Shown one piece after another: positions 38,332 through 63,971 of a DNA stretch of 64,000 bases. Position numbers and translations under genes: made by a program. The notes beneath the pieces were generated by a model, which was not told the DNA's origin, ran no database searches, and was given only the letters and a program-made list of their open reading frames with translations. Numbering within the stretch: position 1 is the stretch's first letter; every line of letters begins with the position of its first letter. Origin of the DNA: a virus (lineage: Duplodnaviria > Caudoviricetes); the IMG/VR virus record IMGVR_UViG_3300015214_000029, positions 1-64,000 of that record; one strand, written 5' to 3'.

Positions 38332-38447
38332 GACACGTAAACGACGCTCGGCTTTGGACTCGCCAAAACCAGGCGTCGCTTTTTCTCTCCCAGGAAGTCG
38401 ATGTTCACGGTTACTTGTAGTGGTAATGGCTATTCGGTTGTCACGAG

Positions 38448-38520
38448 CACGTCCGGTAGGAGTCGAACCTACAGTCCCCGCTTTTGGAGAGCGGTGCGTT
38501 GCCTGTTACGCTACGGACGT
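38448..38520 (-). tRNA. trnW: tRNA-Trp (CCA)
   Basis: ACGTCCG/CGGACGT acceptor stem, CCGCT-CTCCAAA-AGCGG anticodon arm, GTAGG-TTCGACT-CCTAC T arm; CCA end not encoded. Confidence 0.92.
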
Positions 38521-39776: not shown

Positions 39777-40703
39777 TCAAAGTTCCATCGCATCCGCCAC
39801 CAGGGGCGCATCCAGGCTGGTGTCCAGGTACCGCTCCGTCACCGCCATCGAGGTGTGCCCCAGCATGAACTGGGCCTGCTTCATGTCGTCGGTGCGGTTG
39901 TAGAGCAGTGTTGCTGCCGAGCGGCGCAGGTCGTGAACCGAAATCTGGGGCAGACCTGCCGCCCCCGCCCGCTTCTTGACCACCCGCCACAGCCCATTAG
40001 TCGTGATCTGCCCGTTCCACTCATCCGAGGGGGTCAGTGAGACGAAGATGCGCTCACTGTCCCCTGCCGGGCGCAGGGCGTGCCATGTCTCAAGCAGTGC
40101 AACAGCATAGCTGGCAACCGGTACTGTGCGTACCCGGTGGTGCTTACCCTGGATGTCCTCAAACTGGGCGACGATCTTGCCCCCCATCTCCCGTTTGCGG
40201 AACTGGCCCCAGACCAGTTCCGCAACCTCAAAGACGCGCAACCCACAAGCCAGGAAGACTGCCAGGATCGCCCGGTCGCGCACCACCAGCCGCTCATCCT
40301 CGCCCTCTTCAACCGGGAAGTTAAGCAACTGCCGCATCCCTGCGGCATCCAGCCAGTTGCCCCGCTTCTGCCCGCGCACCGGAATGCTCTCGACACTCTC
40401 TGCTTTACTCGCCAGGTCTGCCGGGATCAGGCCCTCTCGCGCAGCTACCCGGAAGAACTTGCGGATAGCCGACAGCTTCTTGTTGATGGTAGCAGGCTTG
40501 TAGCCCCGCTCGCGCAGCGACCGCTTGTACGCGCCCACTGCCTGTGCCGGGGACTGAACCCCCTGCCCCGCCGAGTGTGCCAGGAACTTACGGATCTCAT
40601 CCTCGTACACCTGAGCCGTCTTCTCAGAGTTGGTCTCAGCGACCACCATCTGGATGACTGACTCAACCTGGTCATTGAACTGGGTCTTAACTATCAGGGA
40701 CAT
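39777..40703 (-). CDS. Tyrosine recombinase, Xer/Cre-type (no arm-binding domain)
   Basis: 308 aa; 'RDRAILAV..GLR..E', 'GK', 'HDLRRS', 'LGH', 'TERY' give the full R-K-H-R-H-Y set. Confidence 0.92.
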   Translation of the reverse strand: MSLIVKTQFNDQVESVIQMVVAETNSEKTAQVYEDEIRKFLAHSAGQGVQSPAQAVGAYKRSLRERGYKPATINKKLSAIRKFFRVAAREGLIPADLASKAESVESIPVRGQKRGNWLDAAGMRQLLNFPVEEGEDERLVVRDRAILAVFLACGLRVFEVAELVWGQFRKREMGGKIVAQFEDIQGKHHRVRTVPVASYAVALLETWHALRPAGDSERIFVSLTPSDEWNGQITTNGLWRVVKKRAGAAGLPQISVHDLRRSAATLLYNRTDDMKQAQFMLGHTSMAVTERYLDTSLDAPLVADAMEL

Positions 40704-40911: not shown

Positions 40912-42444
40912 TCAGTCTGGCTTTTTCCATATCGTAATGCTTTTTCGCAAAGCTTCTCTCCCAAACCTCTTCATTTGCTGGCTGCTGTTGCCCTTACGAT
41001 TAGGAAGCACATACACTATTTGCGGTTCATAGCCGAGTTGTTCCGCCAAGTGGGTAGTCAACAAGTCAACGGGTATCACTTCGCCTCCGTATCGCACATT
41101 GTCATTTACGAAGGCAACATGGGCTCCGGGTTGACACGTGCGCAATACTTCCGCGAATACAAACGCCAGTTCAATGAAGTACCCCTCTACCATTGACAGA
41201 ATCCCCCGATTGTTGATCTCGCCCCTCTCCCAGCGAATCCTAAGTGCTTCGTTTACCTCTTGAAACACTGGGTTTGATAGTACTATGTCAAGGGTACGCT
41301 CGAAACGATCAGAGGCATCGATTGACGCATAGTAATCTCTCAGCTGTTCTACTTTCGAACGGTGTTCGACCGTGCATGACAGCTGACTCTGACGTAGTTC
41401 ACGAATCTCCTCTTCATCCACCTTCAGATAGGCAAGTTCAAGTGCATATGTCCGTGTGTAATCATACCTGTTACAGTAAGGTGGAGATGTAATTACTCCT
41501 GCGAACTGATTGGATTCTAGCGTAGGCAAGATTTGCAGAGCGCTTCCTTTGAAAAGGGTCGCTTGACCCTTCGTCCTTGACGCAAGCTGGAGTTCCTTCA
41601 CGTCATCAACAATGGTACTTAACGCGCGAATTAAGGCATCTTTGACAGTAGGCAGATCGCCCTTGTCCATTCCTTTGATGAGACGTTTTCCTTGCCAAGC
41701 ACGCTCTCGATTCCTCTGTCTCACCTTGTCCGATCTGCTGTCCCAACGCAGGTATTGACCATCTTTACGTGTAAAACTGACTTCTTCGAGAATACTGGTC
41801 AGGACAAGTCGTAATAGCACTTTCGCTTCTACGGAAACGTCAAGTAGATCGAACCACTCAGTATAGAACATCAAATCGTTTTCAGTCGTATCGGGAAACG
41901 CACTGTCAGTGATTGCAAGATGCGGAAACCTGTGACGAGCAGGTCCCGGTTCAGTTTCTTCGATGAGCTCTAAGATCCTTTCCAGTTCGTCCGTATCATA
42001 TTCGAACGCATGTGACTTGGCCTCCCATGCTAGATGACAGACAGGGAGAATTTCGATGCCGACTGCATTGATCCCATTTGCTATTGCGACCAGTAAAGTA
42101 GTTGCGGATCCACTAAATGGCTCAAGTAGTGTTTGACCTGGCTGAATGCCGAATTTATTAATCAATGACTGGACAAGTTCTGCGGAAAAGCCCTCACGGT
42201 ACTTGATCCAGCTATGAACCATTTCTCCTTTGTTGCCTTGATAGCTGACAAGCTGTCGATTGAACTCGTCAGTCTCTTCAAGTAACATCATATACTGTCG
42301 CTCTAGTTGACGACGGGCATTCTGAGGGCAGACATCCTCGTGAGAAAAGGTTGTGCGCACCAAGTCTTTTCGATTGGTATTCAAATCGTTTGAATTCAGC
42401 GGTAAAGGCAGTTGCTTCACTCTAATTCCCCTAAATTGTGTCAT
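40912..42444 (-). CDS. N4-cytosine DNA methyltransferase, M.AvaI/M.BsoBI-like
   Basis: 'LEPFSGS', 'RKDGQYLRWD', 'ITSPPYCNRYDYTRTYALELA', 'VNDNVRY', 'KGNSSQQM' match my recollection of M.AvaI; visibly AT-richer than its neighbours. Confidence 0.85.
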   Translation of the reverse strand: MTQFRGIRVKQLPLPLNSNDLNTNRKDLVRTTFSHEDVCPQNARRQLERQYMMLLEETDEFNRQLVSYQGNKGEMVHSWIKYREGFSAELVQSLINKFGIQPGQTLLEPFSGSATTLLVAIANGINAVGIEILPVCHLAWEAKSHAFEYDTDELERILELIEETEPGPARHRFPHLAITDSAFPDTTENDLMFYTEWFDLLDVSVEAKVLLRLVLTSILEEVSFTRKDGQYLRWDSRSDKVRQRNRERAWQGKRLIKGMDKGDLPTVKDALIRALSTIVDDVKELQLASRTKGQATLFKGSALQILPTLESNQFAGVITSPPYCNRYDYTRTYALELAYLKVDEEEIRELRQSQLSCTVEHRSKVEQLRDYYASIDASDRFERTLDIVLSNPVFQEVNEALRIRWERGEINNRGILSMVEGYFIELAFVFAEVLRTCQPGAHVAFVNDNVRYGGEVIPVDLLTTHLAEQLGYEPQIVYVLPNRKGNSSQQMKRFGREALRKSITIWKKPD

Positions 42445-42465
42445 TCTGGTCTAATCAGGTTCCGT

Positions 42466-42584
42466 TCTACTTCTCAGTGTATTCTTTTGCCTTTTCCTTG
42501 TCAAGAGGTTTCGACAAGAATCGTCAGGACCCGGGGTGTGCGGTCCGGGTCCTGACTTCAAGGAGTCTAGTATGAGTGTGTTGG
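42466..42584. repeat. 119-bp direct repeat, copy 2
   Basis: Leftward TTGACA-17-TACACT at 42504-42476; palindrome at 42523-42556. Confidence 0.92.
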
Positions 42585-61178: not shown

Positions 61179-61258
61179 GACAGACTCCTCTCAGTCTATA
61201 TGGATATACGTTCACAACCGGGCACGAGTTACCCCGTGCCCGGATGGTGAGAGCACAT

Positions 61259-62326
61259 CTAGGCGCTGCCCAGCAGTTCGTACTGCTTGAACCGCTTGGC
61301 AGCAGAGCCCTCAAGCTGGGGACCGTAGTTGTCCGTATTGGAGTAGCCCACACCCTGTAGGATGTGAAGGACGCTCCAGAAGTGACCGCGCAGGGGGTAC
61401 CACTTGCCCCGGCCCAGGTCGATCTGGTTGGTCTTCAGGTCGATGATGACGGTGCGGGGGTTCTCCCGCGCCCGGCGACGCCACTCATCCATCTTCAGGA
61501 TGTATGCCTGGGCCACGTCCTCGGCGGCTGCACGGGGCAGGTAGTTGGTGTTGAAGTACCCGCTCAGGTCTACCTGCTCGATGTGCCGCTCCCAGTGGTT
61601 GCGGTCGATGTGGCGGTGATTAAACCAGGGATTTATCTTGCGCAGCTTCTCTCGCACTGCCCGCTCGTAGTGGGGTAGGTTGACGCTGGCGAACTGGTCA
61701 CGGTCCTGGTCTTTCGGCATAATCATGGCGGCATACCTGCCATCGAACAGCCAGAGCATGATACCCGCCCCGGTGTAGACCCCATCGTAAGGCTGGGCGA
61801 ACACCCGGACCTTGCCCATCGGTAGCAGACCGTCGATCCACTGCTGCCGAATGATGTGGAGTGACAGCCCGGGCCGCTGCACACTGAACTCGGCACCACC
61901 CAGGGTCTCGACCCTGGGTTCCTTCTTGGAGCCCGGCCCGTACTCGGGCGGGTCACAGGTCAGGGTCAGGGCGTGCTCGGGAGTGCAGCGCAGATTAACC
62001 GCGTCATTGAGTCCGGCCCCTACGGTGCGCAGGGCCTTGCGCAGCGCCAGTGCATCCGCCACAAACAGGGGGATGAGCGGGCACGTCTTGAACTGGGCCT
62101 CGACCCTCTGTTCGGCGTCCTTAGTCCAGTCCGACTCCGGCGAGGGCACGCCCAGTTCCTCGACCAGCGCCTCGACCTGGTCGTCGTCCAGTTCGTCCCC
62201 GACCACACCGTAAGCATGGGTATCTGTCATGACGAACACGGCAGGTTGCCCGCTGATCTTGAACTGGAGTAGCAGCCTGGGGTTCTTGATCTTACGCAGG
62301 TACTTGAGATCTTCCTCGTACAGCAT
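61259..62326 (-). CDS. Hypothetical protein
   Basis: 355 aa from MLYEED; GAGAGGAGTCT leader. Confidence 0.6.
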   Translation of the reverse strand: MLYEEDLKYLRKIKNPRLLLQFKISGQPAVFVMTDTHAYGVVGDELDDDQVEALVEELGVPSPESDWTKDAEQRVEAQFKTCPLIPLFVADALALRKALRTVGAGLNDAVNLRCTPEHALTLTCDPPEYGPGSKKEPRVETLGGAEFSVQRPGLSLHIIRQQWIDGLLPMGKVRVFAQPYDGVYTGAGIMLWLFDGRYAAMIMPKDQDRDQFASVNLPHYERAVREKLRKINPWFNHRHIDRNHWERHIEQVDLSGYFNTNYLPRAAAEDVAQAYILKMDEWRRRARENPRTVIIDLKTNQIDLGRGKWYPLRGHFWSVLHILQGVGYSNTDNYGPQLEGSAAKRFKQYELLGSA

Positions 62327-62412
62327 GTTAGACTCCTCTCTAGTCCTCTCTCCCGGGCCGGGCACCCCGCAGGGCACCCGACCGCTTGAGAGAGGAGTTC
62401 TACCCTACCTTT

Positions 62413-62441
62413 AGGGTATTCGAAAACTTACGAGTTGTCAA
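62413..62441 (-). promoter_or_regulatory. Sigma70-type promoter just downstream of the mini-tmRNA
   Basis: TTGACA-17 bp-TACCCT. Confidence 0.55.
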
Positions 62442-62451
62442 GCAACTCATA

Positions 62452-62536
62452 GGTGGAGATGCCGGGTGTCGAACCCGGGTCCGCAAGCTTGCCGGGTTGC
62501 CCCGGGTCATTGCCCACGTCGAAGCCAGTCATCCCC
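62452..62536 (-). ncRNA. Miniature tmRNA (tRNA-like domain only, no mRNA-like domain)
   Basis: GGGGATG ACTGGCTTCGAC GTGGGC AATGAC CCGGG-GCAA-CCCGG CAA GCTTGC GGAC CCGGG-TTCGACA-CCCGG CATCTCC A CC; G3.U70 pair, A73, tmRNA-type D-loop GG-x-TTCGAC and GGAC before the T arm. Confidence 0.85.
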
Positions 62537-62543
62537 AGATGGC

Positions 62544-62569
62544 TGGAGCCCACCTCAGCGGGCTCCAGG
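62544..62569 (-). terminator. Strong hairpin immediately 5' of the mini-tmRNA (processing or partial termination)
   Basis: CTGGAGCCC-gctgaggt-GGGCTCCAG, no U-tract. Confidence 0.45.
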
Positions 62570-62579
62570 GGTCTGTAGA

Positions 62580-63200
62580 TCACTTGCTGTACACCACCGT
62601 CACGCTCTGCCAGTTCCAGTAGGCTTCCTTGAGGTGCAGCCCTTTGATACGGGCGATCAGGGCCTCGACCTGCTGGGTATTGCGCAGCCGGTACCAGTTG
62701 CGGGTGCCGTCCTCACGTACCAGGGTGATGCGGGTCATCCGGTAGGACGTGTCCTCTGTCAGATCCAGCCGGACTTCCAGCCCGACCAGTGGGGACACCG
62801 TGAAGTTGTCCCGGTAGGTCTTGCACTGGGCATACACGAACCCGTTGTCATCTTCCCACAGGTCGATGTACTCCACGTTGTAAAGCTCGGGAAAGATGTG
62901 CCAGTCCGAGATATCCATGAACTCGGTACGCCCCGGCACCCAACGGAAGTTGAGGCACCGGCCTTCGTCATACAGGGCCCGCTCTTCATCCTCGTCTACC
63001 CAGTCGGGCAGGTTGTCCGGGTCCCAGCCGTTGAACTGGCAATACTCCCGCCAGTTCTGTTCCTCTACCTCGGGGTCGTCATATGGCTCGGGGTCGTTCA
63101 GCCAGGCATACACCTCGTAAGGCGTACACCCCTCGAACTTGCCCGGACCCCGGGCGATCCCCTCATAGTGGGCACGGACCGCAGCCTTGTGTGTACTCAT
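62580..63200 (-). CDS. Hypothetical acidic protein
   Basis: GAGAGGAGTCTAGTATG leader; 206 aa. Confidence 0.6.
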   Translation of the reverse strand: MSTHKAAVRAHYEGIARGPGKFEGCTPYEVYAWLNDPEPYDDPEVEEQNWREYCQFNGWDPDNLPDWVDEDEERALYDEGRCLNFRWVPGRTEFMDISDWHIFPELYNVEYIDLWEDDNGFVYAQCKTYRDNFTVSPLVGLEVRLDLTEDTSYRMTRITLVREDGTRNWYRLRNTQQVEALIARIKGLHLKEAYWNWQSVTVVYSK

Positions 63201-63275
63201 ACTAGACTCCTCTCAGTCATAGGTTAATGCGTCCAGTGGTGTGCCCTACCGGGGCAGGGCACACGGCTGGCAGCA

Positions 63276-63596
63276 CTAACGGGTCGGCGATAGCGACCGG
63301 TGTTGAGCGGTCACCCGCTCGACCAGTTCGAACGGTACGCCGTCCAGACGGAAGGCACCGTTCTCGGGGATGGGGTCGGTGACGAAGTTCCCGAGCTTGA
63401 CCAGGATCTCTACTGCCTTACGTCTATCTCCCCCAGCATACCGCTGGGCGAAGACTTTGAACCCCTTACGCGCACCCCGCAGCCGCTCTTCCGGGGTCAG
63501 GTGGTGCGCCCGGGGGCTATGCCGGGAGATATGCCCGGCGATCTGCCAGCGGTTCCACCCGGTGAAGGGTCTCCCGCACACTGCACATTCTCTCAT
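63276..63596 (-). CDS. C2H2-type zinc-finger hypothetical protein
   Basis: CAVC...H...H; GAGAGGAGTC leader. Confidence 0.55.
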   Translation of the reverse strand: MRECAVCGRPFTGWNRWQIAGHISRHSPRAHHLTPEERLRGARKGFKVFAQRYAGGDRRKAVEILVKLGNFVTDPIPENGAFRLDGVPFELVERVTAQHRSLSPTR

Positions 63597-63731
63597 GACT
63601 CGACTCCTCTCAGGACTGTTCACACTAGACTCCCTTCTATTCAGCAATGCACTGAGGGGTGTGCCCGGTCATACTACGTTGGTCGGGTACACTGCACCCT
63701 TCCTGTAGCCCGGGCACACAGTCTCAGGGCA

Positions 63732-63971
63732 CTACTGTTCGGGCTTGTCATCCGGCAGCGTCACGCTGATGGTGATGCTGTTCAGGATGCGCTCGAACTC
63801 TTCGCCGGTCACCCGGTCCGCCTTGTCACCCCCATCGATGATGTTGAGGTGTTGCCCGGTGGTCGGGCCCCAGTCGTTTTCCCGCACGATCAGCCCCTTA
63901 CCGGGGATGAACACGGCGACCGGGGTGGAGTAGGAAAACCATAGGGCAATTGGCCCCAGGTCTACCTTCAT
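63732..63971 (-). CDS. Hypothetical phage protein
   Basis: 'FSYSTPVA' and 'WGPTTGQHLNII' resemble a recurrent small phage protein family. Confidence 0.55.
   Translation of the reverse strand: MKVDLGPIALWFSYSTPVAVFIPGKGLIVRENDWGPTTGQHLNIIDGGDKADRVTGEEFERILNSITISVTLPDDKPEQ

What the first reader, a model, noticed from the sequence alone, without database searches (positions are those of the whole stretch)
62452..62536. Phage-encoded miniature tmRNA lacking the mRNA-like domain
The 85-nt gene has both tmRNA termini in normal order. It shows a 7-bp acceptor stem with the alanine identity pair G3.U70 and A73, an unpaired D-loop ACUGGCUUCGAC with no D stem, P2a (GUGGGC/GCUUGC), the conserved GGAC, and a canonical T arm. 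The ~250-nt pseudoknot and tag region is replaced by a 5-bp stem with a GCAA (GNRA) loop, leaving no resume codon or tag ORF. It sits intergenically in the early region between a strong 5' hairpin and a new promoter. Full tmRNAs are known in some phages and tag-less tmRNAs in jakobid mitochondria; I am not aware of a TLD-only form in phages but could not search. Inferred roles: SmpB sponge or dominant-negative inhibitor of trans-translation, rescue of stalled ribosomes without tagging phage proteins for proteolysis, or decoy for tmRNA/tRNA-cleaving defences.
Basis: partly seen in the sequence, partly recalled or inferred. Interest (0 to 1): 0.92.

Follow-up and report, generated by a model that had tools for sequence, protein, structure and literature searches.

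The report
Phage tag-less miniature tmRNA gene
This uncultured 86-kb temperate phage carries a real 86-base gene that copies only the alanine-accepting, tRNA-like end of the bacterial ribosome-rescue RNA (tmRNA); one such phage gene (mycobacteriophage DS6A) is already published, and the RNA most likely competes with the host's rescue-and-tagging system.

Summary
Rfam's tmRNA model matches window 62451-62536 (minus strand) end to end at 70 bits (cut-off 47), with 298 model positions replaced by 13 nt. The claim of no phage precedent is wrong: mycobacteriophage DS6A's 'TLD only' tmRNA is published, and a similar molecule inhibits tmRNA in E. coli. The gene is also not a one-off in kind. At least 109 viral contigs and several cultured Streptomyces phages carry the same architecture, with strong covariation and invariant alanine-identity elements. 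A model built without the window's gene scores it at 60 bits. Independent metagenome contigs span it with no indel, so it is not an assembly collapse. Its tRNA-like domain matches Chloroflexota tmRNAs at 43-46 of 48 positions, closer than any other phage mini, which suggests a host-derived mimic. The phage has no SmpB. The most likely role is competition with host tmRNA for SmpB and stalled ribosomes; this is inferred, not shown. The 'new promoter' is not supported, and at least the hairpin before the next gene's ribosome-binding site is generic to this phage. This scan had already noted such mini-tmRNAs on other phage DNA. Verdict: new member of a known kind.

The parts
62451..62536 (-). Mini-tmRNA (TLD-only) gene. 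G1 = 62536, discriminator A73 = 62454, encoded CC = 62453-62452, then U (62451).
   Evidence: RF00023 70 bits, E 3e-25. Family model R1, built without this gene, gives 60.4 bits, E 6e-14, over 62454-62536.
62530..62536 (-). Acceptor stem 5' strand GGGGAUG. It pairs with 62455-62461 (CAUCUCC) and includes G3.U70.
   Evidence: Sequence. G1-C72, G2-C71, G3.U70 and A73 are invariant in 80 of 80 family members and were not imposed by the search.
62518..62529 (-). D-loop analogue ACUGGCUUCGAC, with no D stem. It contains the equivalents of E. coli U17 and G19, which contact SmpB.
   Evidence: Sequence. SmpB contacts from PMC8363625.
62483..62517 (-). P2a helix (62512-62517 with 62483-62488), an internal loop, and a 5-bp hairpin 62501-62505/62492-62496 with GCAA loop 62497-62500. 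This replaces the pseudoknots and tag region.
   Evidence: Fold. In the family, P2a is paired in 441 of 480 cells against 209 +/- 10 when partners are shuffled. Pair counts.
62462..62482 (-). GGAC (62479-62482; its A is the equivalent of E. coli A334) and the T arm CCGGG-UUCGACA-CCCGG.
   Evidence: Sequence. The two free T-stem pairs are paired in 80 of 80 members with 4-5 pair types.
62537..62574 (-). Stable hairpin directly 5' of the gene (11-bp stem at 62543-62568), after the stop codon of the upstream ORF.
   Evidence: -22.9 kcal/mol, z -2.56.
62345..62450 (-). Structured 3' spacer with three hairpins. The last (62345-62395) belongs to this phage's generic intergenic hairpin family, which precedes the RBS GAGAGGAGUC (62331-62340).
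   Evidence: -63.3 kcal/mol, z -5.65. Comparable hairpins stand before three other exact copies of the RBS.
62580..63200 (-). Upstream same-strand ORF (206 aa) with no Pfam or PHROG match.
61259..62327 (-). Downstream same-strand ORF (about 355 aa from the ATG at 62327) with no Pfam or PHROG match.

Best explanation
The stretch is a functional gene for a miniature tmRNA that keeps only the tRNA-like domain: acceptor stem, D-loop analogue, T arm, and helix P2a closed by a short GNRA hairpin. It lies in the minus-strand early/replication arm of a temperate 85.8-kb phage, between two same-strand ORFs. It is probably co-transcribed with them, then cut out by host RNase P and 3' trimming and completed by the host CCA-adding enzyme (inferred). 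It keeps the full alanine identity set and the nucleotides that contact SmpB, and the phage has no smpB of its own. It therefore most likely binds host SmpB, is charged by host AlaRS, and competes with the host's full-length tmRNA for SmpB, EF-Tu and stalled ribosomes. It has no resume codon or tag frame, so the net effect would be to block or divert trans-translation and degradation tagging during infection or lysogeny. Shown here: the anatomy, membership of a conserved covarying phage family, absence of smpB, near-identity of the TLD to Chloroflexota tmRNAs, and presence of the unchanged gene in independent metagenomes. Inferred: expression, processing, charging, SmpB binding and the effect on the host.
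For: - Identity: RF00023 70 bits end to end. All listed motifs are present.
- Family: the architecture pattern hits at least 120 viral contigs, and 109 of them have a perfect 7-bp acceptor stem.
- Identity elements: G1-C72, G2-C71, G3.U70 and A73 are invariant in 80 of 80 unique sequences although not imposed, while acceptor pairs 4-6 covary.
- Covariation: P2a is paired in 441 of 480 cells against 209 +/- 10 when shuffled. In the formal count, 96.5% of cells are paired against 68.8%, 15 of 21 pairs change on both sides, and the covariation score is 0.66 against 0.14 (0 of 500 shuffles reach it; slid controls at most 0.13).
- Membership: a model built without the window's gene scores it at 60.4 bits and DS6A at 57.8 bits.
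- Phage association: the same pattern in bacterial genomes mostly hits ordinary tmRNA 3' parts, and only about 8 of 120 hits are minis.
- Phage gene content: no SmpB, ArfB/RF-1, CCA-adding enzyme or RtcB.
- No fixed neighbouring protein across the family.
- The TLD matches Chloroflexota tmRNAs at 43-46 of 48 positions.
- Independent contigs from four studies span the gene with no indel or substitution.
- Literature: the DS6A TLD-only tmRNA, and inhibition of tmRNA by a similar molecule (PMC4131195, PMC11915505). A TLD-only fragment accepts peptidyl transfer in vitro (PMC3895274). SmpB contacts U17, G19 and A334 (PMC8363625), and all three equivalents are present here.
Against: - There is no direct evidence that the RNA is made, processed, charged or bound by SmpB.
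- The host is not identified. Chloroflexota is an inference from TLD similarity alone.
- This TLD subtype has no diverged relatives, so selection on this particular gene cannot be shown by covariation. The lack of substitutions in strain variants is not significant (22 variable sites in 1201 nt; about 0.2 chance of none in 86 nt).
- The window's gene departs from the family's near-invariant positions at five sites and may be an independent, recent derivative of a host ssrA.
- Strict conservation of the alanine identity elements suggests that charging matters. According to PMC4131195, inhibition by a similar molecule did not depend on chargeability, so a pure SmpB sponge may be too simple.
Confidence: 0.6

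Rival explanations
1. Productive tag-free rescue. Ala-charged mini-tmRNA with host SmpB and EF-Tu enters stalled ribosomes and accepts the nascent chain. The peptidyl-Ala-RNA is then released and hydrolysed (for example by drop-off and Pth, or by ArfB). Ribosomes are freed and phage proteins escape the degradation tag.
For: The alanine identity elements are invariant in 80 of 80 family members while the neighbouring acceptor pairs covary, which suggests charging is under selection. A TLD-only tmRNA fragment undergoes peptidyl transfer in vitro (Shimizu and Ueda 2006, as cited in PMC3895274). CDS-less tmRNAs persist alongside SmpB in jakobid mitochondria (PMC11915505).
Against: No release mechanism is known for a peptidyl-TLD without a reading frame. 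The phage encodes no ArfB/RF-1-like factor. The published test of a similar molecule showed inhibition rather than rescue (PMC4131195).
Confidence: 0.2
2. A tRNA-like processing signal, or a young relic. The element mainly directs RNase P and RNase Z to cut the early polycistronic transcript between two genes. Alternatively it is a recently captured, internally deleted host ssrA with no role of its own in trans-translation.
For: It sits between two same-strand ORFs and is bracketed by stable hairpins that could protect new RNA ends. Its TLD is closer to Chloroflexota tmRNAs (up to 46 of 48) than to any other phage mini (41 of 48). No diverged relatives of this subtype were found. An earlier scan note proposed such punctuation for other tRNA-shaped phage modules.
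Against: Punctuation does not need G3.U70, A73, the UUCGAC loop or GGAC, yet the first two are invariant across the family without being imposed by the search. A random internal deletion would not be expected to leave P2a closed by a clean 5-bp GNRA hairpin that also fits the family model at 60 bits. The other intergenic junctions of this phage manage with a hairpin alone.
Confidence: 0.1
3. Attachment site. The phage is temperate, and the gene's 3' half serves as attP for integration into the host ssrA 3' end.
For: The phage has a tyrosine integrase. The 3' 31 nt are one mismatch from Chloroflexota tmRNA 3' ends. Contigs in the same samples match 62452-62483 with one mismatch. ssrA is a common integration target (PMC11915505).
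Against: The integrase (39777-40703) is 22 kb away and lies 1.3 kb from a tRNA-Trp gene, a likelier attP region. An attP needs only the 3' part of the gene, not the 5' TLD half, P2a and a capped hairpin. The short-match contigs diverge on both sides, so they are native bacterial tmRNAs and not junctions. DS6A's mini is also about 10 kb from its integrase.
Confidence: 0.05
4. Decoy. The RNA soaks up a host defence nuclease or other factor that targets tmRNA or tRNA acceptor and T arms.
For: Only the general fact that phages carry tRNA genes that counter tRNA-cleaving defences (own knowledge).
Against: No defence system is known to cleave the tmRNA TLD. The conserved features are those needed for AlaRS and SmpB recognition.
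Confidence: 0.05

Closest known systems
'TLD only' (CDS-less) tmRNA of Mycobacterium phage DS6A (JN698994 28478-28560; tmRNA Website tmID 11587; Mao et al. 2009 as cited in PMC4131195 and PMC11915505)
   Same: Encoded by a temperate phage and about 83 nt long. It has a 7-bp acceptor stem with G3.U70 and A73, a D-loop analogue without a stem, P2a closed by a short hairpin after an A-rich internal loop, a T arm, and no tag frame. Both fit the same family model (57.8 and 60.4 bits). Both are missed by routine annotation.
   Different: DS6A has GGUCGAC and GGCAC where this gene has the canonical UUCGAC and GGAC, and it has the CCGCACGCGG hairpin where this gene has a 5-bp GCAA-capped stem. DS6A scores below Rfam's cut-off (43 bits), and this gene scores above it (70 bits). 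The hosts differ: Mycobacterium for DS6A, a probable Chloroflexota host here.
Bacterial full-length tmRNA (Rfam RF00023), especially Chloroflexota ssrA
   Same: The tRNA-like domain is almost identical: 43-46 of 48 nt. It has the same alanine identity set and the same SmpB-contact nucleotides.
   Different: It lacks about 300 nt: pseudoknots PK1-PK4, the resume codon, the tag reading frame and helix 5. It cannot template a tag.
CDS-less tmRNAs of jakobid mitochondria and two Mallomonadaceae plastids (PMC11915505; Jacob et al. 2004)
   Same: tmRNA reduced to the tRNA-like domain, with no tag frame.
   Different: Those are organellar and mostly circularly permuted two-piece genes that work with a nucleus-encoded SmpB. 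This gene is a one-piece phage gene in standard order.
Engineered TLD fragments used in structural and kinetic work (the tmRNA fragment in the T. thermophilus ribosome-EF-Tu-SmpB crystal structure, cited in PMC8363625; the TLD of Shimizu and Ueda 2006, cited in PMC3895274)
   Same: The same design: acceptor and T arms plus a truncated helix 2 closed by a loop. Such fragments bind SmpB and EF-Tu, enter the A site and accept the peptide in vitro.
   Different: Those are laboratory constructs. This one is natural and belongs to a conserved phage family.

Membership tests
tmRNA (Rfam RF00023) | Score at or above the curated gathering threshold over both termini | tested here: met
   70.0 bits against 47, model positions 1-374, E 3e-25.
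tmRNA (Rfam RF00023) | Alanine identity: G3.U70 in a 7-bp acceptor stem, with discriminator A73 | tested here: met
   G3 (62534) pairs with U (62457), and A73 is at 62454. G1-C72, G2-C71 and G4-C69 are also present.
tmRNA (Rfam RF00023) | TLD core: D-loop analogue GG.UUCGAC without a D stem, GGAC, a T arm with a UUCRA loop, and helix P2a | tested here: met
   Sequence, the Rfam alignment and the fold.
tmRNA (Rfam RF00023) | mRNA-like domain with a resume codon and a tag reading frame ending in a stop | tested here: not met
   Only 23 nt lie between the P2a strands, and they are mostly paired. 298 model positions are replaced by 13 nt.
tmRNA (Rfam RF00023) | Pseudoknots PK1-PK4 and helix 5 | tested here: not met
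   Absent.
Phage TLD-only (CDS-less) tmRNA, DS6A type | An RNA of about 70-86 nt made of a complete TLD plus P2a closed by a short hairpin, encoded in a phage genome | tested here: met
   The window is part of an IMG/VR virus record with direct terminal repeats, estimated 100% complete. Architecture.
Phage TLD-only (CDS-less) tmRNA, DS6A type | Fits a covariance model of the family built without it | tested here: met
   Model R1 (38 sequences, window excluded) gives 60.4 bits, E 6e-14, full length. DS6A gives 57.8 bits. 3' parts of full-length tmRNAs give 21-32 bits.
Phage TLD-only (CDS-less) tmRNA, DS6A type | Inhibits endogenous tmRNA / binds SmpB | not testable with these tools
   Known only from the literature, for a similar molecule in E. 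coli (PMC4131195, PMC11915505).
Canonical tRNA-Ala | D stem and an anticodon arm with a 7-nt loop | tested here: not met
   There is no D stem, and the interior hairpin has a 4-nt loop. ARAGORN makes no call. Rfam assigns tmRNA rather than tRNA.
Mitochondrial tmRNA (RF02544) | Permuted or re-permuted organellar TLD | not tested
   Rfam keeps only the best match within a clan. The gene here is in standard order and lies in a phage.

The most novel reading that the evidence does not exclude
Phage mini-tmRNAs are charged with alanine and act on stalled ribosomes, not merely as SmpB sponges. They would form a widespread RNA device that has arisen repeatedly by miniaturising host ssrA, this Chloroflexota-like copy being one such event. 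The device would let phages free ribosomes, or shield their nascent proteins from the host's degradation tag, for example when host RNases cut phage messages.
Probability: 0.2. Interest if true: 0.7.

Novelty: new member of a known kind. Interest (0 to 1): 0.4.

Why it matters
Trans-translation is the main bacterial ribosome-rescue pathway and a proposed antibiotic target. A natural, compact RNA that blocks or diverts it would be a useful tool and a new kind of phage-host interaction. The published record holds a single phage example (DS6A) and nine 'standard, no CDS' sequences in the tmRNA database. This particular gene adds a copy whose tRNA-like domain is almost identical to Chloroflexota tmRNAs. 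That hints at host-specific mimicry or repeated capture. The function has not been tested for this gene.

Tried and rejected
- Cultured relatives: megablast and blastn of the locus against INPHARED phages found no match. Tblastn with PolA found only hits below 28% identity, so it gave no host.
- Close relatives: none found through the neighbouring 355-aa protein, the exact 3' half, or two subtype-specific patterns in viral and JGI metagenome contigs.
- Expression: no RNA holder is listed for the stretch. Two wastewater runs labelled RNA-Seq are flagged as probably DNA, so nothing can be said about expression.
- Assembly collapse: rejected. Contigs from four studies cross the gene without indels or joints.
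- Promoter: the sigma-70 scan found none.
- Rescue- or RNA-related phage proteins: SmpB, RF-1/ArfB, CCA-adding enzyme and RtcB were all absent.
- Dedicated partner protein: all-against-all clustering of ORFs within 3 kb of 109 family minis found only lineage-specific synteny.
- Rest of the genome: Rfam at gathering threshold on 64-85.7 kb found nothing.
- Literature: Mao et al. 2009 could not be read because it is not held, so its result is cited second-hand.
- Pattern bias: the genome-contig scan mostly returned ordinary tmRNA 3' parts. My search pattern imposed UUCGAC, GGAC and the GGGUUCRA..CCC core, so conservation of those motifs within the family is not independent evidence.
- Unpublished genome: one of the six Chloroflexota genomes with a one-mismatch 3' half (G632) is unpublished.

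Full report
**Observation.** The window is bases 1-64000 of an 85,755-bp IMG/VR virus record with direct terminal repeats, estimated 100% complete. Rfam's tmRNA model RF00023 matches 62536->62451 on the minus strand from its first to its last position. The score is 70.0 bits (gathering 47), E 3e-25, with 298 model positions replaced by 13 nt. ARAGORN finds only a tRNA-Trp at 38447-38520 and does not call this gene.

Reading the sequence, with RNA position i equal to window coordinate 62537-i:
- Acceptor stem GGGGAUG/CAUCUCC, with G1-C72, G2-C71, G3.U70 and G4-C69.
- Discriminator A73, then CC and U, so the terminal A of CCA is not encoded.
- 12 unpaired nucleotides, ACUGGCUUCGAC, with no D stem.
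- P2a GUGGGC/GCUUGC.
- An internal loop, then a 5-bp stem CCGGG/CCCGG closed by GCAA.
- GGAC.
- T arm CCGGG-UUCGACA-CCCGG.

The 23 nt between the P2a strands leave no room for a resume codon and tag frame.

**Flanks.** The gene lies between two minus-strand ORFs, 62580-63200 and 61259-62327. Neither has a Pfam or PHROG match.
- Directly 5' of the gene is an 11-bp hairpin at 62543-62568 (-22.9 kcal/mol, z -2.6).
- The 123-nt 3' spacer forms three hairpins (-63.3 kcal/mol, z -5.65).
The promoter is not supported.
- I followed a note of this scan and checked it myself. The exact ribosome-binding site GAGAGGAGTC occurs four times on the minus strand between 61 and 64 kb. Each copy is preceded by a long multi-tier hairpin (z -3.8 to -6).
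- The hairpin at 62345-62395 is one of these generic intergenic elements. The mini-tmRNA sits like a stand-alone cassette between two hairpins in the early gene array.

**The phage.** GC content is 59%. A minus-strand arm (about 30-73 kb) holds PolA, DnaB-like and UvrD-like genes. A tyrosine integrase at 39777-40703 lies 1.3 kb from the tRNA-Trp gene and 22 kb from the mini-tmRNA, so the phage is temperate. It encodes no SmpB, RF-1/ArfB, CCA-adding enzyme or RtcB. Any tmRNA-like activity must therefore use host factors. It does encode a Ro60/TROVE protein outside the window.

- 109 of the hits have a perfect 7-bp acceptor stem, giving 80 unique sequences.
- In an anchor-based register that involves no structure fitting, G1-C72, G2-C71, G3.U70 and A73 are present in 80 of 80. 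None of these was imposed by the pattern or by my filter.
- Acceptor pairs 4-6 show 4-5 pair types. The two free T-stem pairs are paired in 80 of 80 with 4-5 pair types.
- P2a is paired in 441 of 480 cells, against 209 +/- 10 (maximum 239) when partners are shuffled, and about 25-35 of 80 per pair when slid.
- The formal count used 39 sequences with the same D-loop length as the window's gene. It gives 96.5% of cells paired against 68.8%, 15 of 21 pairs with changes on both sides, and a covariation score of 0.662 against 0.136 (0 of 500 shuffles reach it; slid controls at most 0.132).
- A covariance model built from 38 members without the window's gene scores the window at 60.4 bits (E 6e-14, full length, the only hit in 64 kb). 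It scores DS6A at 57.8 bits and the 3' parts of full-length tmRNAs at 21-32 bits.
- In bacterial genomes the same pattern mostly finds the 3' part of ordinary tmRNAs. Only about 8 of 120 hits are minis. The miniature form is therefore largely a phage trait.
- ARAGORN of the 109, which explains why these genes go unannotated.
- 20 of 109 lie within 500 nt of tRNA genes. About 24 lie between the prohead protease and major capsid genes, and about 11 lie upstream of a DnaB-like gene. No neighbouring protein is shared by all.
- Cultured Streptomyces phages carry it too. LuckySocke and GiJojo hold a copy identical to an IMG/VR member, and pSt2308, Alone3 and BRock hold copies 78-81% identical to it. 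In LuckySocke it lies unannotated between tRNA-Val and tRNA-Ser.

**Precedent.** One is published. Mycobacteriophage DS6A is listed as 'TLD only' (PMC4131195). [quoted passage not shown] 2009 (PMC11915505). I located the DS6A gene at JN698994 28478-28560 (43.2 bits, below Rfam's cut-off, unannotated) and confirmed that it has the same architecture. The database lists only 79 phage tmRNA sequences and nine 'standard, no CDS' entries. A full-text search found no paper describing a widespread family. This scan's own notes hold many earlier mini-tmRNA findings on other phage DNA. I treated them as leads only.

**This gene's own features.** Its 48-nt TLD (acceptor 5' strand, D-loop analogue, and GGAC to A73) matches Chloroflexota full-length tmRNAs at 43-46 of 48 positions. 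That includes genomes retrieved by the generic pattern and so not selected for similarity to it. The best of 79 other phage minis reaches 41 of 48. It also departs from the family's near-invariant residues at five positions. No other mini of this TLD type exists in the viral or JGI metagenome collections. The likely host is therefore a Chloroflexota-type bacterium. That would be plausible for landfill, compost, soil and wastewater, where the phage DNA is found. The gene is either a fairly recent miniaturisation of a host ssrA or has tracked its host closely. Both readings are inference.

**Not an artefact.** Contigs from four independent studies cross the gene with no indel, joint or substitution, while the flanks carry 16-17 substitutions per 1.2 kb. 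The clean 86 nt is not statistically significant (about 0.2 by chance). Other contigs in those samples match only 62452-62487 and then run into typical full-length tmRNA sequence on one side and unrelated sequence on the other. They are bacterial ssrA genes, not prophage junctions.

**Mechanism.**
- Established from papers read here: the G3.U70 pair makes tmRNA an AlaRS substrate. SmpB Trp122 sits in a pocket formed by A15, U17 and A334, and G19C abolishes SmpB binding (PMC8363625). A TLD-only fragment accepts peptidyl transfer in vitro (PMC3895274).
- Present in this gene: U15, G17 and A57, the equivalents of U17, G19 and A334, plus the full alanine identity set.
- Best-supported reading (confidence about 0.6): a host-TLD mimic that binds host SmpB, is probably alanylated, and competes with host tmRNA. 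This would block or divert tagging.
- The invariance of the identity elements across the family suggests that charging matters. That keeps a ribosome-engaging role, whether as blocker or as tag-free rescue, open beside simple SmpB titration.
- Rivals: a processing signal or young relic (about 0.1), an attP (about 0.05) and a decoy (about 0.05).

**Verdict.** This is a real gene and a new member of a known but thinly documented kind. Interest is moderate.

Noticed in passing
window 38447-38520 (-) and 39777-40703 (-): A complete tRNA-Trp gene (Rfam 65.8 bits) lies 1.3 kb from the phage's tyrosine integrase. This is the likelier attP region of this temperate phage.
   Followed up: no
L269 (genome 75472-77454, +; outside the window): The phage encodes a 660-aa Ro60/TROVE-domain protein (PF05731, 121.6 bits). 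An earlier scan note claims Y-RNA-like genes upstream of it, but Rfam at gathering threshold found no RNA family in 64-85.7 kb. The phage therefore carries two RNA quality-control-related elements: Ro60 and the mini-tmRNA.
   Followed up: partly
window 61183-61262, 62331-62396, 63205-63284, 63602-63735 (all -): Early genes are separated by long multi-tier GC-rich hairpins (z -3.8 to -6), each followed by the exact ribosome-binding site GAGAGGAGUC. This is a repeated intergenic module of unknown role (terminator, processing site or stabiliser).
   Followed up: partly
OR725497.1 17977-18054 (L272:1501-1578); also PP725410, PV588686, OR725492, KX925554: Cultured Streptomyces phages (LuckySocke, GiJojo, pSt2308, Alone3, BRock) carry unannotated mini-tmRNA genes. 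In LuckySocke the gene lies between tRNA-Val and tRNA-Ser. In GiJojo a 'hypothetical protein' call overlaps it.
   Followed up: partly
L004:7634-7712 and about 23 similar viral loci: In one phage lineage the mini-tmRNA sits inside the structural operon, in the order portal, prohead protease, mini-tmRNA, major capsid protein.
   Followed up: partly
L189:3324-3393: A Saccharibacteria (CPR) MAG contig holds a 70-nt mini-tmRNA-like gene (family model 59.8 bits), with weaker tRNA-like hits nearby. I did not determine whether it is phage-borne or the organism's own.
   Followed up: no
L248/L250 (G003) and L249/L251 (G004): Two MAGs (one an Acidimicrobiaceae) hold both a full-length tmRNA and a mini (70 and 67 bits in Rfam). 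In G003 the two share the acceptor stem but differ in the T stem and D-loop. In G004 the acceptor stems also differ. Mimicry of the host TLD is therefore not universal.
   Followed up: partly
window 41200-42450 and 42523-42556: An ORF-poor stretch with a 21-nt imperfect inverted repeat (41099/42231) and a perfect 12-nt palindrome (42523-42556) lies next to the integrase.
   Followed up: no
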